64,000 nt of DNA from NCBI GenBank assembly GCA_964106915.2, contig OZ066914.1. One strand, 5' to 3'. A program made the translations under genes and the position numbers. The DNA comes from Podarcis gaigeae (taxonomy: Eukaryota). Below the pieces are notes generated by a model, which saw nothing but the letters and a program-made list of their open reading frames with translations, had not been told where the DNA came from and ran no database searches. Positions 27,580 through 53,700 of this stretch are shown here, piece by piece (position 1 is the stretch's first letter; each line of letters starts with the position of its first letter).

Positions 27580-28270
27580 AGTTGCTTTGGAAGAAGGATG
27601 CGCTAAGAAATGTCTCAGCGGCGAGCGCCGTCCGCGCGTTCGCGCGCCTGCCCTCGCTCCGGGCCCTTGTCAGGGAAACCGGCGCAGGCCCCGCCCCGGC
27701 ATCCCGACACCCTTTGCGCCCCGCCCCACCCTCGGCGGACAGGCAGGCCCAGGCGCCGCTCGCTTGTCTCCGCCTCGTCCGGCCTCTTCCCTCTGCCTTC
27801 TCCGGCGGCGTCTCCTTCGCGCGGGCGGAGTGAGGCTCGGAGCAGCTCCCATGGGGAAGAAGTCGCGGGCGGCGCCAGCGGGGCGCAGGCCTATCCTCCA
27901 GCTGTCGCCGCCTGGGCCTCGCGGAGGCCGGGAAGAAGCGGCACCGGGCGAGGGGGACTCGGCGTCGGAAGCGGGTGAGGGCGCAGGCAGGCAGGCCGCG
28001 CGGCCTAGGCGCTTGGCGGGGGGCTTCGTGTCCCTTCGGGGCTTCCGCTGAAAGAGATACCTGGTCTTGTGACGCTCAATGGGGCGCTTCCCCACCGCGA
28101 GAGCACAGGGGTTTTTTGTGGGGGGCGTTTAAGGGTTTGTTTATAAGGCCGCCTCTCAGCCCCCCTCCCACCTCCGGCGCCTTCGCCGCAGTAGTTTGGT
28201 CCCTGTGGTTGATCGTGTCACCCGGGTGTGTCCGGCTTCTGGCCCCGTTCCTTGCACTGGCGCATCGTTT
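27580..28270 (+). promoter_or_regulatory. CpG island promoter / first exon of FNBP4
   Basis: Sharp GC/CpG enrichment, GC boxes (CCCCGCCCC), spans the ATG at 27851. Confidence 0.88.
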
Positions 28271-31200
28271 CCACTATGTCAACACCATTATCCTAGTCCT
28301 CGTTGTTATCTTACGAGGTTCCCAAGGGCTCTTTCAAATTCATAATCTCGGTCGCCCTTCCCACTACTGGATGACCTGGGCCGTTGCTTTTGCCCATTTT
28401 GCAGACGGGAAGCCTGAGGCTGGGAGATCCTAACTTCTTCCAGGCCTCCTAGTCAGTTTGCCTGGGTTTGTTGGTACTCGCTGTGCTTCCTCACAGCCCG
28501 CCCCCCTTTCCCGGACTCTTGTTCTTCGATATGTTTAGCTTAATTCTATTGTCCCTTTAATCTAGTTAGCAAAAGCAGTGTAAAGAAATAAAGCTGAAAT
28601 CCTGTGCGGGCTTACTTGGGAGTTAGCATCATTGAGCACAATGGAATTAAATTTCCAGGTAAATTCCAATAGGATTGTGCTGCCTTTCTAGTCATGACCC
28701 TCTCATTCTCCAAGGTGGTGATTGCTCTATTCTGTACACAAAATAGACGTATAGATGCTTCCTTTTTTTCTCTTGATCCAACCTGTGCCTGTGGGATTAG
28801 CCTACCGAACAGGAGACACAATGTTTCTGAGTTCCTGTTCAGTCTCTTGTTCTACCTAGACTACTTGGTTCCTGTGCAACTTTAGCTTGGGCTGATGCTG
28901 CCATTTCAATAGGGATTAGTGTAGTGCTCTTGTGCATATTCGTATAGCAGGTATATTGTGAGGAGTATTGGTGTATGATGGAGGAGGATGCTGACTCCAT
29001 GTTACTCTACGACATTAGTGGGGAATCTTTGTTCCACAGGCTCAGTTAGGCCCACCAGATCCTTTCAGCCAAGCCACCCACCTGCCCTACATCTGCTGTC
29101 TATTACAGACAAGAGCTTGGATTAAAGGAGCTTTTTCTATGATATTCCTTGCAGAGGGCTGCCCAAGCACTGGCTATCAATGGATTGTCAGAGCTTGGGA
29201 AATTCTGTGCACAGGTTGTATACAATCAGCTGTCACGCATAGTGCTCCACAAGACTCAGTGATCAGCTAATCATCACTAAACCATGTAGGCAAAAATGGG
29301 TCATCTGATGTAATTGTGATGCCTGGTGATTGATAGGTAGACAGCCCCACCCACCTGTCAAACTTGGCCTGTGGGGTGGGTAGGAGAGAGAATGATCTGG
29401 ACAGGTGACTGGATGCATTTTCTATTTGTGCTCTCCAGCAATCCTAGTACCAGTACTGTGTAGTATAGTATAGTTCATATTATGTACATCCCCTTATTCT
29501 TGGGTGTTCTCATTTTTATTTATGTAATATATATTGTATTTATATCTTGCCAGCTTCCCAGGTGGCATTCCAGCCAAGCACTAACCAGACCCAGATGTGC
29601 TTTAGTATGTTCCCTGTAGCTTCAGAATATGGATGTTGTAGGCATGTATAGAAACATCAGTGTATAATTAAATCTGCATCTTTTAGCTTATTTATTTATT
29701 TGTTAAAATTTCCATTGTTATGCACCCCATTGTTATTTAGACTGCAAGCTCTATTTGTTTCTGTTGGGGGTGTTGTTTTGTAAAGCACAATGTACACTGA
29801 TTTGTGCGTGCATGTACACATTTATAAGTTTTCTTACCAACCCGTCACTAGAAACACCCATGGGTGGTTACAACAATATAATCATATAGTTATTAATACC
29901 AAGTAAAATGTTTATGGTTATAAAACATAGAACAGGAAACCCAACCAAAACAGTTTAGATTCACCATAAGAGGAGAGTGCCGCAAAACAATATACCTTTA
30001 CTGTCAAAGCCTAGGTCACTGCCTCTCATTGGTTTTCCTGAGGTGGGAATTCCAAATGATTGTGTTGAGCTGAAAAGGCCTTGTAAATTCTTGCTGATTT
30101 ATTTGCGGTAGCCTTTCTCTGATACTGATTTATTTATCAATCTGTAAGGGTATTGCCAGCCTAGCAGTTCGAAAGCATGTCAAAGTGCAAGTAGATAAAT
30201 AGGTACTGCTCCGGCGGGAAGGTAAACGGTGTTTCCGTGTGCTGCCCTGGTTCGCCAGAAGTGGCTTGGTCATACTAGCACATGACCCGGAAGCTGTACG
30301 CCGGCTCCCTCAGCCAATAAAGCGAGATGAGCACCGCAACCCCAGAGTCGGTCACGACTGGACCTAATGGTCAGGGGTCCCTTTACTTTACCTTTTTTTA
30401 AGGGTATTTATAAACTAGTAACTCATAAGAAAAATGTCAAGTTGATTGTGTTACAGGCTATTCCCAGCTAATGGGGTCCAAGAGGAAGGACGTGCTGTTT
30501 TGTAGGGTGATGGTAAAGAGATGGATTAGAGATGAATAGAATCAGATGAGTGATTTTGTGCTGTAGTAGCACATTTAAGGTCAGGCACAATAATTAAAAC
30601 ACTGTGTGGAATTTGTCTCTTCTCACTTGCAACAGCACAGGAATTACCCAGGTGGAAGGTCTTAACACTCAGGCAACCACATTCTACATAGCGTTCAGTA
30701 ACAATGATTACTCTAACTGAGGGCAAAGATTGTGCTTTCCCACAACAAAGTGTTATGACGCAAGTGCTATGAAAATCAGAGAAGGTGACTAGATGTCATG
30801 CAGCTGTTTATATATTGCACAGTAAAATGAATCTTCTGGCAAGATGCTAAGAAATTATTAGAATGGTGTAAAGAGGCCTTTACCAAAAATGATGTTATGA
30901 TTGTAATTGGCCAAAACTGAAGATATAGTTAGTTTTGCTTTTTCTAGCAGCACGCTGCTGTCTCTAAAACTGATTAAAAACAATAAAAAGCTAATTAGCA
31001 TAGGGGCTTGTGTCCTAAATAAAGAGTTTCCCTATATCTATATCTCATTCCAGTGTGTCTTAAGTATTTTTTCCCCTATCCCCTGGGATTGCTAGTTAAA
31101 TATGTATGCTAATTAAATTATATAACGTTTTACTCTCTTTAAATGTTGCTTTTGTTCTTGTTATGGTAGAAGTTTTGCTATTTCCTCAAATTATGGCAAA

Positions 31201-34200
31201 TTCTAATGATGTATTTATGTCATATGTTTCTGCTGTAGAACTGAATTTCTGAACTTGTGTTACCTTTGTTTTAGTTTATGTAATTTTGTATTTGATGCTT
31301 ATTTTATCAATTTAATGCTGTTAGCCACTTTTAGGGGTTTGTTTTGAATTGAAAAATACAAGTGGAGACCCACAGCAACTAGTGTAATGCTTTATTCAGT
31401 TCAATAAACAAATTGCTGGTTTAAAGCTTTGTTGGGGGGAACTTTAATTGCTGGACCTGTGAGTTAAAAGTAGGTGTTCATTTTTGGAGCTTTTTTAATT
31501 CACAAATGTTATAGTAATAGAAAATTAAAAATAAAGTGTTAAGGATGGCCTTTCTAAGAATGGTTGTATTCAGGTGATCATATCTTAATTTAGTGAGCTG
31601 AGATATGAAGAGAGCTTTTGCCTACTCATGTGACCCTTTTTCTCCTCTCTTCATGGTATGAGCAAACCAAGAGGGCATCAACTATAGTTTCCAGTTTCAT
31701 CTGTTTCTTTGCATTTGATTTTTCCAGACGAATTTGAAGTGACTGAAGAGGCTCCAAGGACAGCCCCAAACCCGCCTCAAGCTAGCATGCCTCTTGGGCC
31801 TGTAGCTGTCAAACCAACAGGTACCACCTTTCTCAATTTCCCTTTTAGTACTAACTTAATCTGCAGTTGCAAACGTCAAGTTATTGGTATACAGTGGATA
31901 TGTACCAATCTTAAGAACAATGTGAAAGCAACAAACAAATCCTTGTGAGAGAAGGATGCTGTCATGGACTGGCTGGATGCAGAGGAGTAGTCAGAGGCAC
32001 CAGCTGGGGAACCCCCAAGGGAAGAAGGCCCAGAGCCTTCTTGGTGGTGGGACGATGATGAGTGGTCCGAGTGAGAAGAGGGAGCAGACTGAGAGGAGGA
32101 GGTGTCAGAAGATGAAGAGGCAGCAGGGTTTAGTGAGCAAGAAGAGGCTGTGGCAGAGCGCAGTTCAGACTCAGATAGAAGAGGAGGGGGACCAGGAGAT
32201 AGAGATGAGGCAGGCTGCTGAAGAATGCAGGCAGTTTCCCCCACCTGCTGTAAGTAGCTCCCTTGCCCCTTGGTCTCCCAGAACATGCAGAGAAATTAAG
32301 AGAGCAGAGCAACGAGAGACAAGATGATGAAGCTTTAGGCTGCTGGGGAAGGAAGGGTGGGGGAAACCTTAGAGAGCGGTGGGAAGACAGATCCTCAATC
32401 CTTGGAACTGCTTCATTGGGGCAAGACCTACTGGGAAGGATAGCTGTGGCCACCAGGACTGAATTGTTTTGTTTCTTTGAATAGAGTTGACTTCACTGAC
32501 ATCATTTGCTATATTCACTCACATCATTTGCTGTATTGTTTTATTGTTGACCTCTGCCTGACTCCAGCTCCTGACAGATGCCTTTAGTGTTGTTTATTAA
32601 CAGACGTTTTGTCTTGTGTTTTACCGTAGAAATATCAGGGGTACTTTACTGTGGCTTGTTGCTCATTTTTAGAGGGGGCTGATTGGATTTAGAGATTATA
32701 GAAGGTTGTAAACATTAAGAATTTTGGTCTTAATGTCATCTTTAATATGAAAAAAAAACACCTCAGTCTATTTATGTTTGACTGAACTCGTCATTTCAGG
32801 ACTATGGGACTACTGCCTACTTTTTCAGATTTTTCCATGCAACCATTCCTTGAAAATTAGGGCAGATGAGCTGTTTATTCTTACAGGAAAAACCTGGAAA
32901 GCATCTTTCCAGTGTTTATTTCACATACTAGTGATAAAGCAAAGACAACAGGACTGTCTTTTGTGGATAAAAAAAGAATTTTGACATTAGTGCAAGGCAC
33001 TCTGATGTCGCTGACATAATTTATTCTGTGCAGTGAGGTGAGGCTTGGGAAAGCAACATTAGTGCCAGTGTCTGGAAGACTGGTTGTATCCAACGTTGCT
33101 GTTTCAGTAGCACAGCTGACTTCCACTTGCACAATGAAACTTTCTCCTCCTATCCCCTGCACCCCCCTGGACATCCTCAAAAACTGGAGGACTCTCTGGA
33201 GCAAATTTTCAGGGCTTCTTGGCCTTTTGGCTAAGATCAAGTGTAGCTTATCTCAGTTATGGTCAACATTGACTTTCTGTTCTAGGTGGCTTATGTTTAC
33301 TTGGCGCTTATGAAGACAGTGATGAAGAAGACAGTGAGATGTCTGAGAAACCAGTGCAGTCTACAGATGCAAATGGCAATAATTCAACAGACATTGACAG
33401 TACCCTTGCCAACTTCCTAGCGGTTAGTAGGAATTGTGTTTTGGTTCATTAAATAATTAATCCTGTTGCTTCAACTTGGGTAGAACATACAGATATTCAC
33501 AGCAATACATAACAGTTTCTATGAAAAGGTGTACAACCTTAGACTGATGGATAGATGTTTTAAATCTTTGATGTATGGGTTGAGCAATTTCTCTTTCTTC
33601 GTTATTACCAAATATTTAAATGCTCTTAATCTTTTGAGTCAAATGATGTCCTGTTTTATCTTACTTGTATTTTTAAAGGAAATAGATGCAATTACAGCAC
33701 CTTCACAGCCTGCTGAGAACACTGTTCCCTCCACTGCTCCACCTCCAACTCCTCCACGCCCAGAACCCAAGGAGTCTGCTTCCAGTCTAGTTTTGGCAAC
33801 TGCAAATGGAACAGACCAGGTGGCTGAGTGGCAATATGACACTCAGTGCTCCCTGTCAGGAGGTGAGCTCCATGTAATAGCTTGTGCTACTACACAAGCT
33901 TGTATACTAGAGGCATTGCAAGGGTTGATAACCCATGAATTACCATGTCTTTTCTAACTGAAAGCAATTTGGTTGTGGTGTGAAGATGAAAGTTGGGAGC
34001 CTTTTTTGGCTAATCTGCCGAGGTCTGTGACTTCAAAGGATTATTAAAGGCAGCTGATGAATGTTGGGTGGAATAACAATTGAGAATGATGAGAGAGGAT
34101 ATAATTGCAATCTTCTCTAGGTATATAGAGCAAATCTGAGGATACTCAGATTGGAGAGGATGCTCACTGAAGTCTTGCTTTCTTCCTATAGTTGGAGTGG

Positions 34201-37200
34201 AGATGGGGGACTGGCAAGAAGTTTGGGATGAAAACACAGGCTGCTATTATTACTGGAATACTCAGACTAATGAGGTTACCTGGGAGCTGCCCCAATACCT
34301 TGCAACACAAGTTCAGGGCATCCAGCATTACCAGCCCAGGTAAGAATGGCACAGAAGAGGAGAGTGAATTGGTACTTTTTTAGTTTCCCTTGCTGAATTT
34401 GCTTTTCTCTTAGTTCTGTGACAGATGCTGAAGAAAACTGCCAAGTGGTTGCAGACCTAAGCTCCCAGGGAAAAGGTGGTGGTGCTACAGCTGCCAGCAG
34501 TGCTGGACGTAGGGCAACTCTTGTGAAGCGAGAATTGAAGAAGGTTAGTATTTGCCTGACTGGCTTAAAATAGTTGTTTTTTAATGGAAATTTAAGAGAA
34601 GAAAAAACAGCAACCCCACTTTTCTCTATTATATTTGTTTTGCACTGTGTAGGCATCTGATTTATTTTTCCAGATGGCAAGAATGAACTGCATGCACTTT
34701 AGAGCAAGAACTCCCGTGCAGAGCATGTTCACCGCATAAGTCATATTATCAGGGTTTTATAAATAAATTATAGACATATCTGTCTTGTTGCATATGGATA
34801 ATTCAAGAGAGTCATAAAAGGATGGGAGGGATTGGATAGCTCAGTGGAAGAGCACAGCGTTTACATGTATAAGTTCCTCGATTAGTTTCTGGCATTTCTG
34901 TTTAAAAGGATTTCAATTACTAAGTCTGGAAAATAGGACTTTTATGCTCTGAGCAATTTTCATCATTTTGTTGGAAGCCCTGATTCCAGGGCCTTTGTTA
35001 AATGCTGGGCGCACACACTAGCAAACTTTGCAGAATGAGAACTAGAAACTTGTTTTTCTTTAAGTAGGTTATTCATGTTCTCTGTGACTGATTGCAGGAA
35101 GCTAATGATTTGGTGCAAAATCATATTGCCTTCACAGGAAGTGAATGAAGGTATTCAGGCCCTTTCAAGTAATGAAGAAGAGAAAAAGGGAGTGGCTGCA
35201 TCACTGCTGGCTCCACTACTTCCTGAGGTGGTGAAGGAGGAAGAGGAGCGCTGGAGGCGGAAGGTTATCTGTAAGGAGGAGGTGGATCCATTGGTGGAAG
35301 ATGATGTGGCACCAGAGCAAGTAGCAACTGTTGCTGATCAGCAGCTGGAAGGCAGCCGAGATATTGGGGAAGACCCTTCTCAGGAGGACCTGTGTAGTGT
35401 GGTGCAATCAGGGGAGAGTGCAGAGGAGGAAGAGGAGCAGGATACTCTTGAGCTAGAGATGGTATTGGAGAGGAAGAAGGTAAGTCATTTGCAGTGAAGT
35501 TGTGGGAACTTTTCTATGAGCCATTTGTCTCTCTCTGCTGTCTATTTGATAAATGGTCCACCACTGAAACTTCACTGAGGGTTATGCATGATTTTTTTAA
35601 ACAAATCACTGAATTGATGCAGAAATTTTGAGAACAGCAGAGGGCAAGTCAAGTTGTTTCCTTCATTCCTCGTTATGTTGCAAACAACAGTCATTAGCTG
35701 TCTCAAGGGGGTGTTGCTTTTTCTAGTCACAAAGTACTGTACTGTGGTTTGAGTAGTGTAACTCTTTGAGAAGACTTTTTTAAATATTGTGTCCCTTCCC
35801 CCCTTTCCAAGGTTGTGGCTGGCCTGCCATTGGTCTTTAATTTTGATTGATCAATTTCAGTTATATACCACCTTTCTGCCAAAGTATTCAAAGAGGTTTA
35901 TAGCTTTAAAATACTTAAACAAATGAATTATATAAAATGTAAAGTTGGTCCTGTTGTGGAGAGTGCACAGCTCAACTTGAGTAGGCCCTGATCCTATCTT
36001 TGCTTGCCTGCCTCCTCAACTTGATTCTTCCTTTTCAATATATGACGGTTTAAGAAGGGTGCACAAGTAGCAATCCTGCATCTGAAACCTCTTAAAACTA
36101 TACAAGCAGCCTGAGTTTGTCTCTAATCAGGTGCAGGCGGAACCTTCGCATTTAACAGGATAACTTCATGGAAAAGATAAATGTCTTATTTTTCTGCAGT
36201 GTTGAAGCCTACTGCCTCTGAAGTAATCTCTGTCCAGAGAAGCTGTACTAGGGGAGAATGGACATGTAGACAAATGTAGAGGAATAGGAAGAGAAACAAA
36301 TAAGTTGTTCCCCAGCACTGAAGTAATGTTTTGCCTTATAGGCAGAGCTACGTGCTTTAGAAGAAGGTGATGGGAGTATTTCGGGTTCCAGTCCACTTTC
36401 TGATGGAAGTCAGTCAGAGTTAGCACGACGGTTGCTACCCAAGCAAGGAAAATGGAAGCTCTTTGGGGTTGCCAGCCCAGAATCCACCAGCCGAGGGTCT
36501 AGCAAGACAGGTCAAGAGAGTCCTGAACCTGGACAAGCAGGTAAGAGTCTCCTGCTTAGGATCCTTTTTGGTTCTTCAGTTATATCTAGTGCTACTAAGG
36601 AGGGAAACTATTGGTGGAATTTAGCATTGCACTATTATGAACATTCTGTCTGTGCAACCATTTCAGCATATCAGATGGAACAATCCCTCCTCTCCTCCCC
36701 CTGTGTGCTGTTTGGCACGTTCTCCAGACCTCCACCCCTGAGCCAATTTGAAAGGACAGGGGACGGGGGGAAACTTCTGCTGATGGGCTCCTTAGGTGAA
36801 TCTCACCCTTAAGTTTTTAAAGTGGGTATTAGGTGTGTCTCCCCAAGATTGAGGTAGGAAGATACTGGTCACGCCAATAATTCCAATCCAGTGTCTGAAA
36901 TGGTCTCTTGTGTTAAAGAAAAACATAATACAACATAGTAGGTTGAAAAGGCAGGATTCTCCTCCCCACCCTTCCCCTAGTAAGTTGCCTATCATTCTTC
37001 TTACCTATGCCAGTCCATTGTAAAAGGGAAGATATACTGGGCACTAAATGGGGAATGACTTACAAACACTCCCCACCCCCTCTTGTTTTCTGTTCAGCGG
37101 TGAAAGAAGAACCAGAAGTGGCTGAGCAGAACTCGGACAATGAGCCAGACACAGAGGAATTGCAAGACAAAGTGAAAACACAAGGGACTTTCAAAGCAGA

Positions 37201-40200
37201 AGATGAGGAGCAGGACTTAAAGGTATGCGGGTTTATGGTTCTGCTGCGAAACCTAAGCAATATTACTTGAGGCAGTTCACACATTTCCAAATGTCTTCAA
37301 ATTGAGTTGGCTTTTTTCTCCTTTCTACTTTCTTTTCTTCAGTCAGTTGAAATTGCCACACAGGTATCAGTCCTTTTCATGGCATGATTAGGTGCTGCTA
37401 TACTGATTGGAGATACCTAAAGTATGCAATTGATTATTGACTGTCTGGAATCTGAGCACACAATGAATGTGTACACATGAAGTTTGTAGTTCAACTCAGT
37501 TTGAAACTGCCACCCTTCTTGTGGGTTATATTGGCCTTTAGATCCCTATCAGTACTTAACCTTGGCTAGGAGACTTCAAAGCTGTGTAGCTTTATTGTGC
37601 AGAGTAGTTTTGAAATTCTTCTAGGTTATTATTCTGTAGGGGTGCTTCTGATACTGCTTTTTAGTGACGTGTGTCAGGTATTAGTAGCAAATAATGTATT
37701 TCTTGATGGGAATTAGGAAGGTGTGGCACTTAAATGCAGTTGTTAATGTCTGTCAGAAATACTTAATTGGAAATAACATTCAGCCATTATGTTCTTTGTG
37801 TGTTCCCTATACCTATTATCCCTGTATTAAGTGTTGCTGTTTAGAAGATGTTGGCACTGGGAAATGGGACAGTCTCTTCTTGTGTGAGAATAAATTGAAA
37901 ATAGTTGCATTAGCCATATGGATTATCCATGTGTAACACTCGAGTTAAAAGTAGAGAAAATATTAGATAGCCTCAACGTATTCCTGCGAAATGGCTGCTA
38001 ATGCTGTGGGCAGAGCATACTTTCAGAATTTGGCACAATTTTTTGCCAATTGTAAGTTACTGGTCAGATCACACCTCTTTTTGTTAAAACAGATGGTGTC
38101 TTGTACACTTCAGCATTGCAATTGCCTTGTGCATTGTGACTAGCACAAAATTATTGACCCCTTGCTTGCTTTACTTCTGGCAGTTTCAGATTGGAGAGCT
38201 GGCCAACATGTTGATAAGCAAGCTGGAGTTCTTGGGCATCAGTAGACAATCCATCTCTAACTTCCACATGCTACTGTTGCAGACTGAGGTAACGAAAGTT
38301 TACCTTTTATTGAAAATTAACCATAGGGAGCCAAACAACTGGCAGCATTGCAGTGTGATAGGAATCTAGGAAGTTTTAAGTATTATGGCATGGATAACAG
38401 GCTTCCTCTCCCTCGTTCCTTCTCGCTCCCTCCCACTTGGCCCTCAAGCAGAATGCTTTAGTCCAGTAACGTATCTGAGGTTTTCTTGATCTATATGTAG
38501 TTCTCATCATGTTCTCTGTCATTAGTGCTGACTCTTGTATTAGTGCTACTAACATTGGGTGAGATTCATCTAACCAGTCTGATTTTTCCTTGTGCAACTG
38601 GGCTTCCCAGCCCTCTCCCTTGCATGCCCCCTGTGCCCTCCAAAATTGGCACAGGGGGGTCAGTAGAACCCACAGAACAGCATACATTGGGATAGGAGAG
38701 GAAGAGATGGTTCTGTCTGGCAAGCTGTCATGTGTGTGCAAACACAACAACTGACGTTGAATTCCACCCACTGTGTAGAACTGCAAAGTTAAGTGGAAAA
38801 TGATGTACATGAGACCAATTGTCTCTACAGGTTTTTCATTATTTTTCCTTGCCTGCTTGGTATAGACCCGTATTGCAGACTGGCGGGAAGGAGCTCTCCA
38901 AGGAAACTACCTCAAACGCAAATTGCAAGATGCAGCTGAACAGCTAAAACAGTATGAAATAAACGCCGCCCCTAAAGGCTGGTCCTGCCACTGGGACAGG
39001 TACGCACTCTTCTCCCCTTTTCACCTTTCACCTTTGACATCTCAGACATGATTTGTGACCATCACCACCTGCCGACGTGCCGTCATCTGTCTGGAGACTG
39101 AGAGCAGCTGCACTTAGCGGTGCTGAGCGGGCAGAGAGCCTCTGGCACATACAGAGTTTCAGCCAGCCACAAAAATTGGAGAAATATAAAGTCTGTGTTA
39201 AGTGTGTTGAAATGGATTTGATTCCGCGATTGGACAGAGCTGGTGTTTACTCTTGAGTGTAAATGCGCTAAGGAGGGCGGGCTTGGGGGGTCGCGCATGC
39301 GAGAGCTCTGTGCACATTGCAGGATCTCAGGAACTCCGCTCCCAAGTAACGCCTGTGTCCTTATGGAAAGCTCCCTCACTGAGGATCTCAACGAAGAACA
39401 AGATAACTGTCTCCTGCCAGCAGGTCAGACCAAACTATTTCTTCTTATATTTGCCTTTCTTGATTCTTTTTGTTTATTTGAAATCTTTGCTCTTTTGTTT
39501 TTCAGCTCCCAGATCCTCTCCCTCTCAGTAGCAATTCACTATGTCTGACACCAAGAGTATCATAAATGTGACTGCAGCAGTCCATGGGGGAGCAGCCATC
39601 TTTCATAAATTGGGCTGTTTCTCTTTTTGCTATTCTGGAAGGAAATGAATCCTGAGACTACCTAAAAAGTCTATTTCCTAATGCATCCTTGAACCTTTAA
39701 TTGCACACCAGCCACAAGCTGCTTCTATAACCCTCTACTTTTAGAGTGGAGGGTCAGGGCTGTGATCACAGAGCCAGCAGCGCAAACAGTTTGGAGTAAG
39801 CCCATCTTGCAAATCCTTCCTCAAAGCTGTTTGTTGCCTTTGTGAACAGCAGTCCTACTGTAAGAGGTTCTTCCTGTGAGAGCACTCCGCTGTCGCGGGA
39901 GAGGACTATATCATTGTGTCAGTGCAGGGGCGAGAGCATAAAACCTTGTTTTCTTTCTTGTGATTTAGGGATCATAGACGCTATTTCTATGTTAACGAAC
40001 AATCAGGCGAATCCCAATGGGAGTTCCCAGATGGGGAGGAGGAAGAGGAGGGGCAAATCGTAGAGAATAAAATGGAAGCTCTTCCTAAACAAGGACTAAA
40101 GGAGAAAATGGAGTCTGGTGCAGAATCGTCTGATAATACTACAGGTACTGGACCTTGAGGGTTTGCTAAAAGAAAGTTAACCCAGTTTGGAATAATGTTT

Positions 40201-43200
40201 TTAAGAAGGTAGGCTCCTTGTTATTACTTCTTGTAAGTATATTCAATGACCAAAGGCAGTTGCTCAGAAATCCTTTTTTGTATTGCAGTATTCAGCCAGG
40301 TGGAGATGAATTGAAATTAGTGCATTACTTGCAAAACAGTTTTCTGTACTAGGATGGGGAACCTGCTGGCCTCCAGGTGTTGAGTGCCCATCAGCCACAG
40401 CTAACAAGCCCTGTGGTCCTGTGTTAGGGCCTGTGGTCCTGTGTTTAGCAATATCCATAGTGCCACAATTTCCTCACTCTCATCTTTACCCACCTTTAGA
40501 GATATCACTGCCAATTGTTATGCATGTGGTTCATATAGCATACCCGCTATGCCATATTGACATGGGAAGTATAATTTCTTTCTGCTTGTATTGTTTTTCC
40601 AATTTGGTTTTTAAAATTGGGGGCTGGTTAGTGGGATCATTATAATACTTTCCCAATGAAGTTTTTCTTCTCTGAAAAGAAGCAGCATAACAGTGGAAGG
40701 AAAGTTGTAAGATGGGTGGATAGTTCTTGCAGGTATGGGGTAATTTAAAAAACCTACATGATGTTCTTTCATTTTTTTTCATTTTTAGGGTCTCTTCTTA
40801 AAGAGCCTCTTTCTAGTCAAAATGCAGCTACCTCTCTTGTGCCTCTCAGTCCATTTTGGACTGTGCTCCAGCCCTCTGTCCCTGTACTTCAGCCCCCTTT
40901 ACCTTTGGAAATGCCACCACCGCCACCACCCCCTCCAGAGTCACCCCCTCCCCCACCCCCACCGCCGCCCCCACCCCCACCAGGGGAAGATGGGGAAATA
41001 CAGGAAGTAGAGATGGAGGATGATGGAGATGAGGAACCACCAGCACCAGGAACAGAGGAAGATGCTGTACTGAAACCTCTTCTCCGACCAGCAGTTGCCA
41101 ACAGCCAAGTAAGTTAGTGCATATGGACCCTCTAGCCGTTCTATAAAAGCTAGTATCAGGCGTGGATTGACCTGTGAATGTGGCCACAGCTTTGACCTGT
41201 GAATCTTCTGCATTCTTGCATTTTATATTGTAAAACCGTCTTGCCCTCTTTGCCGCCTGTAGCATAAACTTTCTACTACAATCTTCTATAGCAGTCAGTA
41301 AATGAAAAGTAGTTTGTTTCTGCCATTCAAGTTTTGTGCCTTGTAAAACGTGTGTCAGAAAACGGATTTGTGTGACCCATATACAATATGGAAATACATG
41401 CTGTGATAGTGATGTTGCAAAGTGAGAAGCCAACAGAATGATTTCAGATAGAGTAAATGAATGTTGCTTTTTCACAAGAACTAAAATTGCCCATCAGATA
41501 ATCTGCAGTGATTTGATTTTTTAGTGTAAAAACTCCTACACATCCAAGACAATTTCCCTGAAACAACATGGAATTTTATAAGACATGCATGTTCCAAAAA
41601 TGTACAGAGACCATTTAAAAGAACCAAACTAATTGACATCTGTCTGCTTCCAGGCCAACTCTGAGGCCAACGTATCTGCACCTCTCTCCACTAAATCTCT
41701 TAAGAGAAAAGCTTCTGAAATCAGTGCTGGACTGGTGCAACGAGCAGCAACCATTGGAAGCTGTCCAGTGCTTTACGGGCAGTCAGTCATAGGTGTTGGT
41801 GAGTAACATCCACATCCTTCTGCTTAGCTGCTTGATATCCCTGGAAAAGTTTGGAAATAATTCTCATTTCCCCCACTTTGTGTATACAGGCCCTCAGACC
41901 CCAGGGGTGAGTTTGCAACAGAGTTTCCTTGGAGTAACGCAGCCGGCACTCATGAACTATTCTGAGTGTAGTGTGCCTGTTGGTCTTTCTGCCAGCACCA
42001 CACAGCCAGTTCCTACACAAGGAGCCGCTCCTGCCACTAGCACTACAGAACAGCTGTCGCCGCCTCCACCACCTCCTCCACTGTCCCCACCGCCACCCAA
42101 AACACTACCTCCAGAGAAGTCAAAGAAGCTTAGGAGAGCTGGCAAGGTGAGTACTTAAATTTGTACTTCCTGTCGTTGTACATGCCAGAAATTGGACAAG
42201 CTTCATATAGGTTGAAATGTGTATTATTTTACTCTGCTAGACTTTAGAACTGATACATCTTGTATGACAGTAGGTCCGGAATGAGCAACTTGGCAGCTTC
42301 AAAACTGGAAGCTGTTGGGATTTTAGAAACACATTACAGAAGGAGGTGCTCTTTTTAGGTCTTTGAGTCCACCAACTCCCCTGAGGCCTAATCACCTTAG
42401 AGATACCAAGCTGGTTCTGTTTGTTTTCTTGTTTGGGGGCCATTGTGGCTTTTGTGCTGGGATGTGTGCTCTGCTAGCCAGAACACTTTTTATGATCTAC
42501 TCTAATGTGAGATTAAGCAAAAAGAATGGGTAAAATCATTGTTTTCCTTCCTGTCTTGCCTACCTTATCCCTAATGAGAGTGAGAATGAAGAGTTCACGG
42601 AGGCCTAATTCTACTCATCAGGGTAACATGCTAAATATTTCCCCGCAGAGAAAAAAAACCAAGACGAAGATGCCCTCTCTTGTAAAGAAGTGGCAGAGCA
42701 TTCAGCGGGAACTGGATGAGGAAGAAAACTCCAGCTCAAGTGATGAGGATCGGGACGTGATCTCACAGAAGAGAATTGAGGAATGGAAACAGCAGCAGTT
42801 AATCAGGTATGAGAGAGACAGCAAGATACGGTCTGATAGCACCCCTCTCCTTGCATCGCCCAGTGTGATTTGCTTTAGGTAAATTAGTGCAGTGTGAACT
42901 GTCAGCCCATGGTTGCTGGTTTAAGTGACTTGTGCCACTGCAGGATTTAGGTTGGTCTAATTGTAGCTGTTCTTTTTTTAAAGGAAGATTGGAGAGTCTT
43001 GTCATGTTTTCAGGGGCATTGGAAAAAATTGAAGATGGGGAATGTAATACATGCAGAACAGAAGTGGATATGGGAGTTTCAGTAGACAAGCTTGTAGGCC
43101 TAATTTCCAGAAGTCACAGCACAACCTTGGGGGAAACCTTGTATGTGAGGCAGAAGAGAAAGAAATGTTATGTACTTGCAGCATTCGTTTAAAGAGTTAG

Positions 43201-43765
43201 TTTCCTCTTGCATATGAAGTGATTTATTAATTCTGTGACATTCCTTATATACAGAATGGATTTAATGTGCTATATCATACTATGTATTGATATAATAGTG
43301 AATGTGGGTGGTACGTAACACATCCCATCATTGCAAGGATTTATGTTTGCACAACAGAACTCCCCTCTTCCTCCCCCCCTGTGCGTGCTAAATCTGTTCT
43401 ATGGTTCACTTCACCCTCCAGAAAGATTTGGGGAGGACAGGAACAGGGGAGGAGAGTAGGAAACATTTCCATTGTACAAGCATAAATCTTTGCACTGGCA
43501 GGACACGCTAGTTGGATACATGCTTTGTAAGTAGGTATTGTGTAAACATGAAAGCAGGTTCTTTGGGGGATCGGTTGCCTTCACAAATGGGCACAGTCTG
43601 GAAAATATCAGAAATCTTGATTTCTTTAGTTCTCCCATTGCTGACTGACAATCCTAATGTTTTGTTCTTCACAGTGGTATGGCAGAGAGAAATGCAAATT
43701 TTGAGGCTTTGCCTGATGACTGGCGATCTCGACTCAAGAGGCGGAAAGCTACTTCAAGCACATGA
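27851..43765 (+). CDS. FNBP4: Formin-binding protein 4 (FBP30; two WW domains, proline-rich), complete, 17 exons, about 955 aa
   Basis: Exons 27851-27974, 31728-31820, 33286-33422, 33679-33862, 34192-34339, 34414-34543, 35138-35479, 36342-36540, 37098-37222, 38184-38288, 38866-38999, 39969-40144, 40789-41108, 41654-41798, 41890-42146, 42649-42806, 43675-43765 (TGA); total 2868 nt. N-term MGKKSRAAPAGRRPILQLSPPGPRG; GGLCLLGAYEDSD; WW1 GDWQEVWDENTGCYYYWNTQTNEVTWELP; WW2 PKGWSCHWD|RDHRRYFYVNEQSGESQWEFP; C-term KMPSLVKKWQ...AERNANFEALPDDWRSRLKRRK. Confidence 0.97.
30155..30398 (+). mobile_element. 5'-truncated Sauria SINE
   Basis: Same core and tail as 21720; TSD TAAGGGTATT (30145-30154, 30399-30408). 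Confidence 0.9.
31960..32576 (+). mobile_element. Solo LTR (probably Gypsy-type) in FNBP4 intron 2
   Basis: Ends TGTCA...TGACA with 5-bp TSD GATGC (31955-31959, 32577-32581); 617 bp, purine-rich. Confidence 0.85.
34824..34930 (+). mobile_element. Degenerate tRNA-derived SINE head
   Basis: ATAGCTCAGTGGAAGAGCAC A-box followed by a decayed B-box; no intact cloverleaf. Confidence 0.5.
39000..39968 (+). promoter_or_regulatory. FNBP4 intron 11: CpG-rich, structured putative splicing-regulatory (retention / poison-exon) element
   Basis: About 20 CpGs in 969 nt, no recognisable TE, several long helices, decoy acceptor at 39045, in-frame TGA at 39049-39051. Confidence 0.6.
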
Positions 43766-46899: not shown

Positions 46900-47520
46900 C
46901 AAAATGGCCCCAGCCTACCCCGGACTGAGACATAAGACTGTGAAACGACAATGTTCGGACAGAAGCAAGAGGTCCCTCCCCACCTGCACGAAAAAAGCCC
47001 CAAACCCCACCAGGCGAGAAGCTATCCTAGTTCAAGCAATGGCTTGTACCGCTGCCACTCGCACTGACGGACCAATGAACGGCTAGTCCCACCCCCATCC
47101 TGTCTAGTTCTGGCGTGGCTGGTAACTAGGATACTCTGCCCCCCACTCCTCTGAGTAGTGGTAGCTAAGAGGGGAAGAAGGCGGCCGGGGCGGGGGGAGC
47201 GCTCCTGAGAGCACTGAGGGGCGGGCAGGGGGCGGGCACGAGAGTCACATATCTGGTCCTGCCACTCCCTGCCCCCCGTCCCGAGATTGGGCGAATGTTA
47301 TTGGCTCAGCCCGCGTGCGAGCGAGCGGCCTCCAGTCGACGGTTATGAAAAGCAGGCGCGCGCGCCGGTCCCGTGTGCGTCTGCGGGCGTTTTGTTGTGA
47401 GTGACCAAAGCAGTGTCGCCATAGAAGCCTTTCAGCTTCGTATGGGTCGGCGGAAAGGGTTGCCAGGCGCTTGAGGTAGAATAACTTTCTTTTGGCCTGA
47501 GTCAGAGGAAGCGCAGGTCA
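46900..47520 (+). promoter_or_regulatory. CpG island promoter and non-coding first exon of AGBL2 (GC boxes, CCAAT boxes, RFX X-box at 47122-47134)
   Basis: CpG cluster, GGGGCGGGG boxes, CCAAT/ATTGG motifs, GTAACTAGGATAC X-box; probable donor GAG|GTAGAA near 47475. Confidence 0.75.
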
Positions 47521-47797
47521 CCTTTTTAAAAGCCTGCTTTGAAGCCTCTTCTTCCGTATCTTTCATTTATCCATAATATCCCCGTCCCTTTGTCACAATT
47601 AACCTTCTCTCTCACACACACACAACGCCACACCGACTTCGCGGGGAATCTCATGGGTGGAGACTGGCAGAATAATCAGCCTTTGCTGTTCTTGCCAAGT
47701 GGAAGACGAGGCTACTTCATATAGGCTTTCTTTTCTTATTAACGCCTTTTCTCCGCTTCTCTGCAGGAGGCATCATCAGATAGTTGTGCTGAATGAC

Positions 47798-50700
47798 ATG
47801 TGTCCGGCAGATCCAGCATCTGAGGTCAGTACAAAAGTCAGTCCAAAAATGTACGGGGCTAGATGGGGTCAGTCACCTCCTGGTTCTCAACTGGTTTTAA
47901 GTACTGGTGGGATGCTAGAAAATCTTTCAGATCTCTTCAGCGGAGATTAGAATGATACGCTTTGATTGTGTTTGGTTCGTTTTGAGATACTGCGCACTCA
48001 GAGAATTTATTCTTTATCTCAGCATTGTAACTTACAGGGTAGCTTAGTGGTTAGAGAGTGTCGGACTAGGACCTGTGAGATCAGGGTTCGAATCCCAACT
48101 CAGCCATGCAACTTGCTGAGTGAGCTTGGGCCAGGCACTTTCTCAGCCTAAACCTCAAAGGTTGTGAGGATAAAATGGGAGAGGTGAGAACCATGTGTGC
48201 TGCCTCGAGCTCCTTGGAGGAAAGGTGGGATGTAAATGTAGTAAATAAATAGCAATGGATGCCGTGGTTTTGGTAAATGAGGCTCATTGTGCTCATTCCT
48301 CATTTTCCCTTCCTTAGCAGTTTAGAGAGCCATATGAAAGGTTCATACATCAGCATCTTCAATACTATGGCTATTTCAAAGGTAAGAATCTGATCCCAAT
48401 CTGGGATTGGGTCCCATACAGATCGGTTTGTTTTATTTTATCTACCATTATCAGGCTCTGTAACTGATTGCTATAAAACATTTTCAGACATTTCTAAATG
48501 TTTTTAATTGTTTTGCTGTTTGCTGCCCTGGACTCCTTTGAGAGGAAGTGTAGCATAGAAATGTAATAAATGAATAGTCCTTAAGGTGCCAAAAGACCCC
48601 TCATTGTAATTTCCCCCTTATACCCAAGTTATAACTAGCAATACTTGTTGACTTTAGTGGAATTTACTTCAGAATATGTGTATGCAATATCTTACTTTAT
48701 TTGTCTACCTAATATCTGTTATGTTAGATCTCTGTAAGGCTTCAGTGAATTCAGTGAGACCTATTTCTGAGTAGACATATATAGGATTGCACTGTAGATT
48801 GACATAGTCCCTCCTTATTATTTGGATGACACTGATAGCTATGCATACAAGCTATGCTACTGGCATATAAAAAGTAGCCCTAGTACTATAATGTTAGTTT
48901 TAAATTTTTAATCAGTGGGTTTTTCATGCCAGTATAGTAGCTCACTACAATAACGATAAGCTCAGAAATAAATTGATTTTGCCTATATTAGTTTGGGCTA
49001 GTTTTTCACATTAATAGTAGCATTTCCCCCCCCCCCCCCAGATGAAAATGTTCCTCAGAGCCCCAGTTTGCCTCTTGAAAGTTGGAAGAGTTCTTGTCCT
49101 GTGTCGAAGCCGGGTAACTTCCACAAGAAAAGTAGAGCAGAAAATAATTCAAGCAAGAACACATTCTGTAAGTAAGATGTAAGCCTGATATGAGAAATAT
49201 ATTGATTGAGTTGCTGTGAATGAACTGTATGATTGTGGTCTCATATCTGCAAGGCTCCTGGGTATCTGTAAATAAATTTCTTTTGTATTATTTCTTTTCC
49301 CTTTTCAGGTTCACTTATGATGGAGACTGCACTTCTTAAAAGCAACCAACTTACGTTTGACCATCCAGAGGGGCCTGGTATTCCACGCTTGAGAGAACCT
49401 CGGAATCTTTTTTCTGTTCCCAATGATTCACTGTTGGCTCCACTCTGGCCAGTAGAATGTGAAGTGATCAAGGATTATATCCACCACATTGGTAATTTCT
49501 TGGATTGAAATCAATGTTTTACATGGTTGATAATGTTTTGCTTTAAAGCTTTATGGCTATACAAGGACTGTGACTGAATACTTTTTCATTTGCACAAATC
49601 CAGATAAACAACTCAAAAATGAACAATGTAAGTTTAAGATTCTCTTGGGCCGTTTTAAAATATGTGAATATATAATACCCAATCACTTTTCATAGTGCTT
49701 CCATACTAAAAGAAACAAACCATTATTTCAGTTGGCTCTATGGAGATGAGATTCCCAATTTTGTTATAAATGTATTGTGGATTAAATAACCATTATGGTG
49801 GCAGGATTTAATTAAGACCATTTCTCACATTCCCTTGTTATAGCAAAGAAATCAATACTTTGGTTAGGAAAATATGTAAAATATAATGTGTGAATAGTGG
49901 TATCAGTGTATTTGAGAAGCCAAATGCATTGCCATTTCAGTGTTTGTCACCAGATGGACAAGTGTAAGTTTAATATTGACTGTCACTCACTTTTTATTTA
50001 ATAAGATCAGTTAATGAGGTCATAAAATTAATATTGTGGGGGGAAATCTATGTGTTAGCTGTGACTCATAACTTGGCATTATCAGGAAATTTATCATTAC
50101 TATGGTCTCTAATGAAAATGTTTCTAAAATAAGCCCCAAGAGTCCGATCTCTTAGAACCTTCATTGATTTGGCTTTTATTTTGTGTGCTTTCCTTTCTCC
50201 GGAGTTCCAGGGCTGGAGAACTTGATCCAGCTGGTGGGCCAAATCCTGACATCTCCCATGGCTACTTTAATAGGTGGGCAGGGCCACCCATCTGTTAACC
50301 CCATGACTTACCATGGCATCAGGTGACAGACCACACAGACCAAATTAGGACCACTGCTGGACCTAATTTGGCTTGTAGGCCAAAGTTTTCCTATCACTAC
50401 TCTAATTCATGTTACAGCACATATAGTTTTCAGTTTAAGTAATTTTATTTGTATTCCATTCTTCCTACTTATTTGTTTTCCTTGTCATACAACTAGAGAT
50501 TGAGGGGAAATACTTCAATTCTTATTTAATGTCTAATTTTTTTCCTTCTAAAAGTACAAATAAGGCCACAATAGAAATAAATGTCTTTATGTATTTTGTT
50601 AGAGTGGGTTCCTCCTGAACCTGAACCTTTCTATCAGCCAACAGAAAATGAAATGGCTCCAGAAGTAATGGGAGAGGATCATGGAACTGTTGTCTATGTC

Positions 50701-53700
50701 ATAGATCCAGGTATTTGCGTACATACACTGACAATAAACTGTAATAAAAGATATAGTACATATAGTGACCATTCCAGTAAACAAGATTGTAGGCATGAAA
50801 AATGTAAACTCGGAAGTCTGATTTTTTTAAACAGCCTGAAATTATTATAAATATTGAACAATTTAATCCTAAAAATAGTAGCTGCCTCAAATTTGTAAAG
50901 TTTCTAACAGCTCCATTGGTAGCCATTATGGGGGAAAGCACCTGTGAAACTACAGCATCTTTAGTTCTTTGCCCTGTTCTTAGAATATAGTAATAGAAGC
51001 CAAATTGAAGTCATATTTTTATTTGCAGCCAGTTTTCAGTGCTATTTGTTCATGGTTGCTCAGGACTGAGTAATTGGTTTTGCAGAATTGGCACACATAG
51101 CTGCTAATTAAGACAAAACTGCAATGCTAAGTCAGTGATAGCCATGCTTCCTCTTCTGTAGCAACCAAGGGTACCTGTTTCACTGGTTCCCGAGTTGGAG
51201 GGTCGAAAGAGCCCATCAAATCAGCTGCAGTCAGCTTAAAAGATCCAGAAGACACCACGCTGTTGTTTGAATCACGCTTTGAGAGTGGGAATCTCCAGAA
51301 AGCCGTCAGGGTGTGAGTAAGAGGAACTATCTGGAACTAAAAGAGGGAAAAACTTTTTAATATTATGGTTATAATGGGTGTGGAACCTCAAACCTGGAGC
51401 CACATACAGCCCTCCATACCTCTAACTGGCCCTGGCACTCTTCCTCGGCCCACCCCTCACTGGTCCTGCACTGCTTCCTCCTCAAGTGCTTTTGTTTGAA
51501 CTGTGTCCTTGGACTTTGATTATTTGTCTTGCTTGCTTGGCTGGAGAGAGATGGGGAGGGGGTGTAGAAACGTTTCCACAGGTGGAATGTAGCATACAGA
51601 GATACCTTGGTTCTTGAATGGTTTAGTTGCCAAACAAATCGGCTCCCAAACCCCGCAAACCCAGAAGTAAGTGTTCTGGTTTGCGAACGTTTTGTGGAAG
51701 CTGAACATCCTATGCAGCTTCCACTTGAGTGCAGGAAGCTCCTGCAGCCAATCAGAAGCCGTGCCTTAGTTTTTGAACTGTTTCAGGAGTTGAACGGACT
51801 TCCGGAATGGATTAAGTTTGAGAACCAAGGTATCACTGTATTGTACAAAGGTAAGAGTCACATTTTTTGTTTTGCCTATTTTTGCCTCTAGACTTGCCTA
51901 CTCTTAGGCTGAAAAGATTCCCCACCCTGGGTCTGGGTCATCACTTTTTGAGACTTTCTTTAAGTACTAGCATGCCCATCATACATGCCTAGATCTTCAA
52001 GTGCTGCTTATCCATCTGATGCAATCCTAAACAGGTCAAACAGTTTTTGATATTGAGTATCTTATGACCAGAAATTTATTGAATATATTATAGGTAAAAA
52101 TAAAGGGACCCCTGACCATTAGGTCCAGTTGTGACCGACTCTGGGGTTGTGGCGCTCATCTAACTTTATTGGCCGAGGGAGCTGGCGTACAGCTTCTGGG
52201 TCATGTGGCCAGCATGACTAAGCCACTTCTGGCGAATCAGAGCAGCGCACGGAAATGCCGTTTACCTTCCCGCCGGAGCGGTACCTATTTATCTACTTGT
52301 ACGTGCTTTTGAACTGCTAGGTTGGCAGATATTATGGGTAGCTTGCATTTATTATGTTAAATTATTCCAAATACCTTTAATTATTGCAATTCTGTGGACA
52401 TATGTGGGCAACCTGACCAGCTCCCTCAATACTCCCTAAAAAGTCTTATGGTACCTTAAAGACTAACAGATTTTTTGTGGCATATAATTTCTGGTAGTCT
52501 TTAAGTTGCCACAATAAATTCTTGTATAATTCTGTTACAGCAAAGTCTCCTCTGAAATGGCCTTTGTGAATTTGGCATTTTATCTTATGCTCAACATCAC
52601 TAAAGTATGAATACTAGTTTGCTGAGGTTTCCAGTGCTTTGAAAATGTGTGTGTATGAAAATGTCTACATGAAACCCTAGAACAGAGATTTTCAAACTGT
52701 GTGTCCTGACACATTAGTGTGTCGGCTGCTGTGTGTAGATGTCTTGCACTCCTCCCAGGGCTGGGAAGGGGTTAGTTTAACCTCTGGTTTGCTAGTAAAA
52801 CTGTGTCACGAAATGATGCATGTCTAAAAAGTGTGGCACCAACATGGAAAGCTTGGGAAGCTCTGCCCTAGAGAGCCACTTCAAGCAAATAAAGACATTG
52901 CTGAACAAGATGGACCAATGGTGTGACTCAGTATAAGGCAGCATCTTATGTTCCAAATAATCAATAAAATAAATGTTGAAGCTGAATAAGAAACATATTG
53001 CGCATGCTGTGTTCTGAGGATATTTAATATTAACAGAATTTGCTAAACAGCACCAAATTATTAGGTAAGCATTTCCTCACCAGTGAGCTTGTGTGAGTGC
53101 ATTGAAATAATATTTAAAATATATACTGCACTTAGCTTATCAGTTCTTTGTAGTTTTGGTAGAGCAGCCACTTTCCCAACTGCATGCAATTTTTCTGTTG
53201 AGCTTTCAGTTCAGCAGTTTTCACACCAACTCTAAACCGATTTAAGCTCAAAGTGTGGGGTTCTATTCCAATCTTGTCCATTAATGGTTATTAGCTAATG
53301 CCCAATTCATTGTCAAAGCAATCAGCTCATGAAGTTAAGGCAATTATTAATATGTGTACACACAATGGCTTGGGCTTAAATCCATGCCTTAGTCCCTACC
53401 TGACCCTTGAACACTAGTAGCTATTTAATTTTTTTTGAAAAACTATATGCCAAAATTCATGTCTAATTTAGATCTGAATTGGGGCTTCAACATCAAGCCA
53501 AGTGTTTTTCTTCTCTCTCTCTCTCTACTTCCATTTTGCTTAACTTCCATTAAGCCTGATGAAGCTTCTGTAGAACTCAAAAGTTCCTCATTATTTTGTT
53601 GGTTCTAAGGAAGCTAATGTGCATTTTGGAATTCTTCTCATAGATCAACAGGGCTTCTTTGCTTTCTGTATCTCCTATCAACCAACTATTCAGGGTTATT

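What the first reader, a model, noticed from the sequence alone, without database searches (positions are those of the whole stretch)
39234..39363. Two crossing helices (pseudoknot or bistable switch) in the 5' half of FNBP4 intron 11
Seen: helix A = ACAGAGCU (39234-41) / AGCUCUGU (39304-11), closing a multiloop with GUGUUUAC/GUAAAUGC and UCGC-GCAU-GCGA hairpins. Helix B pairs the multiloop strand UAAGGA-G-GGCG-G-GCUUGGGGG (39269-39289) with CUCCCAAGU-AA-CGCC-UGUG-UCCUUA (39339-39363), about 19 bp in three segments. A and B cross, so they form either a pseudoknot or alternative conformations. Helix B encloses the candidate cryptic acceptors UUGCAG|(39322) and CUCAG|(39330). An extra hairpin CUUAGC-GGU-GCUGAG lies at 39113-39127. 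Inference: a conformational switch that exposes or hides a cryptic exon.
Basis: inference. Interest (0 to 1): 0.7.

Follow-up and report, generated by a model that had tools for sequence, protein, structure and literature searches.

The report
Sequential RNA helices in FNBP4 intron
An intron of the FNBP4 gene, whose mouse counterpart often stays unspliced, holds two unusually strong crossing RNA helices that are predicted to form one after the other as the RNA is made, and they likely help decide between a working and a dead-end transcript, though neither their conservation nor this role has been tested.

Summary
Both helices are in the sequence, and helix A is longer than reported: up to 26 bp (39214-41/39304-37), as stable as the 20-bp helix B. 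The 8-bp version is chance-level (19 of 500 shuffles). The extended crossing pair is not: 0 of 3500 local shuffles, best site in the 64 kb, 0 of 17 whole-window shuffles on its fitted grid but 5 of 17 off-grid, with a statistic chosen after the fact. A is predicted to form first on the nascent RNA; B replaces it and wins by 5-7 kcal/mol. A lasting pseudoknot is unlikely. The helices lie in a stop-containing extension of exon 11, upstream of an internal donor (39424) and a nested 82-89-nt intron. Published mouse data show the same layout (548-nt exon, 87-nt intron, 91% retained), and the intron length is nearly the same in three species (969, about 974, about 975). No orthologous helix sequence or reads could be examined, so covariation and expression are untested. 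The scan holds no earlier FNBP4 finding. Verdict: a plausible, unproven co-transcriptional switch in a known detained intron.

The parts
38866..38999 (+). FNBP4 exon 11 (134 nt); productive donor at 39000
   Evidence: ORF-preserving 17-exon model, 955 aa; human FNBP4 primer matches 16 of 20 at 38884-38903
39000..39968 (+). Intron 11, 969 nt; splits the second WW domain
   Evidence: exon 12 matches Pfam WW positions 13-31 of 31; mouse about 974 nt and human about 975 nt from published coordinates
39000..39423 (+). Exon 11 extension (exon 11L = 558 nt) with in-frame stop ending at 39051
   Evidence: the mouse counterpart is a 548-nt exon; use in this organism inferred
39113..39127 (+).
   Evidence: pair probability 0.01-0.06
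39214..39241 (+).
39243..39266 (+). 8-bp hairpin between the A and B 5' strands
   Evidence: in the minimum-energy fold; replaced by alternatives in other contexts
39269..39290 (+). Helix B, 5' strand; G-rich run
   Evidence: G4Hunter-type score 2.0, quadruplex predicted only in an isolated 41-nt fragment
39291..39302 (+). 4-bp hairpin inside the B loop
   Evidence: probability 0.93 in 6 of 6 contexts
39304..39337 (+).
   Evidence: acceptor scores -5.5 and -0.2 bits
39339..39363 (+). Helix B, 3' strand; holds the second-best donor motif of the intron (GT at 39346)
   Evidence: 6.0 bits, rank 2 of 49; unpaired 0.61 in state A, 0.22 in state B; use not shown
39381..39406 (+). Purine-rich run, candidate exonic enhancer (motif class recalled)
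   Evidence: best site in the window for the mouse exon-side primer, 19 of 26, but 41 of 200 shuffled primers do as well
39421..39429 (+). Internal 5' splice site (GT at 39424)
   Evidence: best of 49 GTs in the intron, 7.8 bits; position fits the end of the mouse 548-nt exon
39424..39512 (+). Nested small intron, 82 nt (acceptor 39505) or 89 nt (acceptor 39512)
   Evidence: best two of 73 AGs, 12.0 and 9.2 bits; mouse 87-nt intron; a mouse intron primer matches 22 consecutive bases here (by eye)
39969..40144 (+). FNBP4 exon 12
   Evidence: mouse and human primers match 21 of 24 and 17 of 20, 0 of 200 shuffles each

Best explanation
Helices A and B lie in a stop-codon-bearing extension of FNBP4 exon 11 and likely act as a co-transcriptional switch: A is predicted to fold first, B is predicted to replace it once its 3' strand emerges, and the timing would bias the choice between the productive donor at 39000 and the dead-end donor at 39424. 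Shown here: the pairings, their strength against shuffles, the gene model, the stop codon and the splice-site motifs. Shown in mouse by others: an internal donor, a nested 87-nt intron and strong, stimulus-sensitive retention. Inferred: that this organism uses the same sites; that the internal donor and the strong internal acceptor tie up splicing factors as decoys and detain the transcript; that state A leaves the G-run (39269-90) and the spare donor motif at 39346 more open to proteins such as hnRNP H/F or U1 (binding preferences recalled), while state B buries both; and that A and B exclude each other by topology, since both exceed one helical turn and share no bases.
For: The crossing pair is beyond local chance and robust to settings, the best site in the window, and stronger on the sense strand. 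Predicted A-to-B handover: the 8-bp core of A has probability 0.96-0.99 at 3' ends 39326-39340 from three start points, and the B core 0.81-0.98 from 39353 on. The G-run is unpaired 0.34 in A and 0.05 in B; the donor motif at 39346 is 0.61 and 0.22. There are 9 CpGs in 39214-39363 against 0.97 expected from the 14 other gene-body introns (P 9e-7; at most 4 in any 150 nt of the 12 long enough), an indirect sign of constraint. The sequence is single-copy in the genome. Mouse layout and retention: 548-nt exon; 87-nt intron with PIR 0.91 falling to 0.54 with bicuculline; 560-nt intron with PIR 0.72 (PMC9627664 supplement rows). Precedent for elongation-dependent structures: PMC12519161 and PMC7797038 (abstracts).
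Against: There is no orthologous sequence for either helix, so no covariation, and no reads, so neither retention nor any junction is shown in this organism. The statistic was built after seeing the feature, and the window-wide control is borderline (5 of 17 at the off-grid value). With 150 more upstream bases the 17-bp form of A reaches only 0.02-0.44. Transient helices are common in any growing RNA, and I ran no shuffle control for the handover itself. Neither state changes access to the internal donor (0.26 against 0.25), so the effect must be indirect. Overall folding z-scores are near zero. A second mouse primer that must lie in the extension has no significant match here (147 of 200 shuffles as good), so parts of the extension have diverged. 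CpG retention could also reflect low methylation or protein-binding sites.
Confidence: 0.35

Rival explanations
1. The regulatory element is the set of nested splice sites and protein-binding motifs. Helix B may form as a passive fold of a G-rich stretch, and helix A is a lineage-specific coincidence.
For: The only features with support from other species are splice-site positions and intron length, all outside the helices. Folding z-scores are weak. A has probability at most 0.03 at full length. The window-wide control is borderline. Decoy splice sites promote retention in SF3B1 and OGT reporters (PMC6097662 passages).
Against: 0 of 3500 shuffles give two such crossing bands; the signal is sense-strand biased; the CpG excess peaks over the helices.
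Confidence: 0.33
2. Helix B is the functional, static element that masks the G-run and the donor motif at 39346; A is at most a folding intermediate with no regulatory role.
For: B probability is 0.78-0.99 in all contexts; 1 of 87 GC-matched windows folds as well as the B domain; B covers the second-best donor motif.
Against: It does not explain why a band as strong as B crosses it; the B-domain z is only -1.3 to -2.5.
Confidence: 0.14
3. The core of A and helix B coexist as a lasting H-type pseudoknot with hairpins in its loops.
For: The strands are disjoint and ordered A5-B5-A3-B3. With the DP09 penalties of PMC5886407 (passages) and no dangles, A8 or A10 with B20 is 2.6-5.7 kcal/mol better than the nested fold in the shorter context.
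Against: 6 of the 8 combinations disfavour it (+1.4 to +10.8); in the longer context A10 with B20 is +0.8 to +20.2 and A17 with the 9-bp B core is +9 to +28. The favourable A17 or A26 with B20 cases need two stems longer than one turn, which would knot the chain (established topology argument, not computed). These are hand-added energies from mixed parameter sets.
Confidence: 0.1
4. One reading: the switch gates a cassette poison exon that starts at 39322 or 39330 and ends at 39423.
For: Either exon introduces a premature stop. The two states expose the two AGs oppositely (0.50/0.10 in A, 0.18/0.56 in B). Human RT-PCR found an extra exon in this intron (PMC2467489 section 6 and primers).
Against: Both acceptors lack a pyrimidine tract (ranks 44 and 21 of 73). 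The two mouse events listed start from a 548-nt extended exon 11, not a cassette.
Confidence: 0.08

Closest known systems
Mouse Fnbp4 intron 11, nuclear intron retention (PMC9627664: passages, section 9, supplement rows; PMC1800850: table passage)
   Same: Same gene and intron; extended exon 11 (548 against 558 nt), nested small intron (87 against 82 or 89 nt), donor-to-exon-12 distance (560 against 545 nt). Mouse Fnbp4 RNA is 19-38-fold nuclear-enriched.
   Different: The passages and rows I saw describe no RNA structure or mechanism. Retention in this organism is not shown.
Decoy-exon intron retention: SF3B1 intron 4, OGT, ARGLU1 (PMC6097662, passages)
   Same: Internal non-productive splice sites in a retained intron; products carry premature stops.
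   Different: The supported internal sites here are ordered donor then acceptor (a nested intron), not acceptor then donor (a cassette); the intron is under 1 kb; FNBP4 is not named in that paper's main text (0 occurrences).
'RNA kinetic switches' in NISCH, GAK, MEGF8 (PMC12519161, abstract)
   Same: Nascent-RNA duplexes whose effect on splicing would depend on elongation rate.
   Different: Those duplexes were crosslinked and sequester splice sites that are used; here the helices are predicted only and do not cover the supported sites.
ATE1 competing pairings R1R3 and R3R4 (PMC7797038, abstract); BRD2/BRD3 poison-exon structures (PMC10789245, search listing only)
   Same: Alternative intronic helices linked to splicing outcome.
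   Different: In ATE1 two strands compete for one shared partner, with conservation and compensatory mutants shown. Here A and B share no bases and would exclude each other by crossing; conservation is untested.

Membership tests
H-type pseudoknot | Two stems on disjoint strands in the order S1-S2-S1'-S2' | tested here: met
   39214-41, 39269-89, 39304-37, 39339-63
H-type pseudoknot | Both stems formed at once, more stable than the nested fold | tested here: inconclusive
   -5.7 to +10.8 kcal/mol and +0.8 to +28 for the unknotted forms, depending on parameters
H-type pseudoknot | Covariation in both stems | not testable with these tools
   No orthologous intron sequence obtained; the metagenome scan gave 0 matches
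Bistable RNA switch | Two folds of near-equal free energy at full length | tested here: not met
   B-locked ensemble is better by 4.6-7.1 kcal/mol in 4 of 4 contexts, although the two bands alone are equal
Co-transcriptional (kinetic) RNA switch | An early fold that is displaced by a later one as the chain grows | tested here: inconclusive
   Predicted from starts 39150, 39200 and 39224; weak from start 39062; equilibrium folding of prefixes only, no shuffle control
Co-transcriptional (kinetic) RNA switch | Splicing outcome depends on the helix and on elongation rate | not testable with these tools
   Needs minigenes or antisense oligonucleotides with polymerase rate mutants
Decoy-type detained intron | Internal splice-site motifs at conserved positions | tested here: met
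   Best donor and best acceptors of the intron fall where the mouse events place them
Decoy-type detained intron | High retention of the intron in this organism | not tested
   No reads could be laid; retention is known from mouse only
Decoy-type detained intron | Retention falls when the internal sites are mutated | not testable with these tools
   Bench test
   -5.5 and -0.2 bits against -0.7 to 12.5 for the gene's 16 acceptors (matrix from this gene only)
Known Rfam RNA family | Covariance-model match | tested here: not met
   0 at gathering score in the window; 0 at E <= 5 in 39062-39469

The most novel reading that the evidence does not exclude
A topological timer: two long helices of equal strength that share no bases but cannot both complete without knotting the RNA. 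The first holds until polymerase delivers the partner of the second, and elongation speed or a helicase thereby sets how much FNBP4 RNA is spliced productively or parked in the nucleus, in an intron whose length has barely changed between mammals and this lineage.
Probability: 0.2. Interest if true: 0.8.

Novelty: new variant of a known kind. Interest (0 to 1): 0.5.

Why it matters
Mouse Fnbp4 is among six transcripts listed as more than 10-fold nuclear-enriched in two cell types, and its intron 11 responds to neuronal stimulation within a transcription block, yet I found no mechanism in print. A compact 150-nt element with two defined, separately mutable helices would make the kinetic-coupling model of intron detention directly testable. 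A side point: the mouse 'spliced' amplicon starts upstream of the internal donor (primers), so by analogy with this gene model it likely carries a premature stop and would not encode full-length FNBP4.

Tried and rejected
Reads: none could be laid, so expression, junctions, editing and variation are open. Orthologues: metagenome scan 0 matches; the protein search with a 45-residue piece gave 1 unnamed hit of no use here; the genome has no relatives in the collection. Rfam: nothing. Repeat origin: one match in the own genome (the tool warns that this does not prove rarity). G-quadruplex: only a two-tier form in an isolated fragment. METTL16/U6-like ACAGAG boxes at 39152 and 39234 (motif recalled): incomplete motif and not in a hairpin loop, so rejected. 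That the CpGs sit in helices is uninformative, because helices cover most of the stretch. The 30 kcal/mol A-to-B barrier ignores pseudoknotted intermediates and is only an upper bound. and the first-hairpin column used wrong registers and were discarded (redone); searches failed, and the exon table was off by one (fixed). Literature: FNBP4 + intron + RNA structure 0 papers; FNBP4 + intron + poison exon 0; FNBP4 + intron 58, 40 listed; + splicing + retained intron 6; + spliceosome 23, 20 listed; + nonsense-mediated 7; + alternative splicing + chr11 4. One search was swamped by structure papers (0 of 40 listed name FNBP4). No FNBP4 in the supplements searched for PMC2467489 (3 files) or PMC8168582 (one file not searched); files 14-18 of PMC12534703 were not seen. 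The 100-nt human FNBP4 exon in PMC3951401 (passage) appears to lie outside this intron by a recalled assembly offset and was not used. PMC6097652, PMC11079029 and PMC12705057 (passages) add nothing on this intron.

Full report
Setting. The window lies in a 1.5-Gb vertebrate genome, unnamed, and 39001-39500 has one match in it. Splice-site snapping gives a 17-exon, 955-residue reading frame from 27851 to 43765 (one of six equivalent boundary paths, which differ only upstream of exon 9). Exon 5 and exon 12 match the Pfam WW domain, exon 12 only its second half. Published FNBP4 primers land on exons 11 and 12: human 16 of 20 and 17 of 20, mouse 21 of 24, reached by 3, 0 and 0 of 200 shuffled primers. 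So the gene is FNBP4 and the finding lies in intron 11, 39000-39968, 969 nt.

The observation. Helix B has 20 pairs, and its inner 13 have mean probability 0.78-0.99 in six contexts. The 8-bp helix A has probability at most 0.001 in those six and at most 0.03 in sliding windows. In that form it is ordinary: 19 of 500 shuffles and 35 of 491 real windows. Overall folding is also ordinary (z -0.83, -0.52), and there is no Rfam match.

Folding growing prefixes showed that A extends outward. With B's strands blocked, A is a 26-pair band, 39214-41 with 39304-37, at -32.6 kcal/mol, against -32.9 for B; the two share no base. Scoring each sequence by the weaker of two crossing bands, 0 of 3500 shuffles reach this value (best -30.6). 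It ranks first of 1596 real windows, the next being -28.3, and first and second of 3192 on two other grids. The antisense strand gives -12 to -24. Against this, I defined the statistic after seeing the feature, and in 17 block-shuffled copies of the window (GC-rich windows only) none reached -31.6 but 5 reached -26.1, the value seen on the worst-placed grid. I read this as beyond local chance and borderline at the scale of the scan.

Pseudoknot or switch. Locking A or B gives ensembles that favour B by 4.6-7.1 kcal/mol in four contexts, so this is not an equilibrium bistable pair. Hand-added pseudoknot energies with the two penalty sets tabulated in PMC5886407 (passages) favour coexistence of the A core and B in 2 of 8 combinations and in none of the 12 unknotted combinations of the longer context. 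Coexistence of the long forms scores well in 4 of 8 combinations but would need two stems of more than one turn, which knots the chain (established argument, not computed). In time, the A core has probability 0.96-0.99 at 3' ends 39326-39340 from three start points, and the B core takes over by 39353. With the start moved to 39062 the 17-bp form of A reaches only 0.44, so the early state depends on upstream context. No shuffle control was run for this handover.

Which splice sites matter. PMC9627664 (passages, section 9, supplement rows) lists two mouse events between exons 11 and 12, both from a 548-nt exon: an 87-nt intron (retention 0.91, 0.54 after bicuculline, 0.79 after BDNF) and a 560-nt intron (0.72). 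The matching lengths here are 558, 82 or 89, and 545 nt. One of its intron primers matches 22 consecutive bases upstream of the 39505 acceptor (by eye). Its exon-side primer has its best site at 39381-39406 but is not significant alone, and three other mouse primers have no significant match. If mouse exon 11 is 134 nt as here, the mouse intron is 974 nt; the human junction into exon 12 spans about 975 nt and is differentially spliced (PMC12534703, passages and one supplement passage). A human RT-PCR found an extra exon in this intron without giving its ends (PMC2467489, section 6 and primers). Mouse Fnbp4 RNA is 19-38-fold nuclear-enriched (PMC1800850, table passage). Reading into the extension stops at 39051, codon 591, and every route through donor 39424 that I tried has a premature stop (15 of 15).

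Mechanism. I infer a detained intron with nested decoy sites, like but not identical to the decoy-exon model (PMC6097662, passages). The helices sit 60-210 nt upstream of the internal donor and do not change its accessibility (0.26 against 0.25). What they change is the G-run (0.34 unpaired in A, 0.05 in B), a spare donor motif at 39346 (0.61 against 0.22), and the two weak AGs in opposite directions. The most likely function, if there is one, is a window of time in which these signals are open before B closes them, which would couple polymerase speed to donor choice, as for the kinetic switches of PMC12519161 and the ATE1 structures of PMC7797038 (abstracts). Nine CpGs in the 150 nt, against 0.97 expected, suggest constraint on this stretch but do not say on what.

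Limits. No orthologous helix sequence was obtained (no relatives held), and no reads could be laid, so covariation, retention and junction use in this organism are open. Two searches for FNBP4 with RNA structure or poison exon found no paper; the library lacks most subscription journals. The scan holds no earlier FNBP4 finding.

Verdict. The setting, a conserved detained intron with nested splice sites, is likely (about 0.85) and known from mouse. The sequential switch is my best single mechanism at 0.35, barely ahead of incidental helices at 0.33. Interest 0.5.

Noticed in passing
window 33211-33246 (+): A 5' fragment of U2 snRNA (Rfam RF00004, 36.5 bits, E 3.4e-6, below the gathering score of 46) in FNBP4 intron 2, in sense orientation, ending about 40 nt upstream of the exon 3 acceptor. 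Probably a truncated retrocopy; its place near the branch-point region is curious.
   Followed up: partly
window 16927-17023: The most stable hairpin region of the window for its composition (residual -30 kcal/mol): an AT-rich inverted repeat of about 45 bp, possibly a transposon remnant.
   Followed up: no
window 16700-16830 and 51700-51820: Two related stretches with an internal inverted repeat, by eye copies of one interspersed repeat.
   Followed up: no
window 62214-62373: Second-best pair of crossing helices in the window (-35.5 and -28.3 kcal/mol); not recovered on the two other grids.
   Followed up: no
window 39131-39159 and 39234-39240: Three CAGAG repeats, each complementary to the CUCUG at 39306-10 and to another near 39140; they could offer alternative partners for helix A's 3' strand.
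   Followed up: no
window 39009-39045: A long pyrimidine tract, branch-point-like motif (A at 39037) and AG only 45 nt after the productive donor; too close to serve as this donor's acceptor, possibly another decoy.
   Followed up: no
window 39641, 39744, 39927: Further good acceptor motifs (6.9-8.6 bits) in the 3' half of intron 11.
   Followed up: no
window 47100-52000 (+): A second GC-rich promoter-like stretch and coding exons of a downstream gene; a carboxypeptidase-like motif suggests AGBL2, the mammalian neighbour (name and synteny recalled, no call).
   Followed up: no
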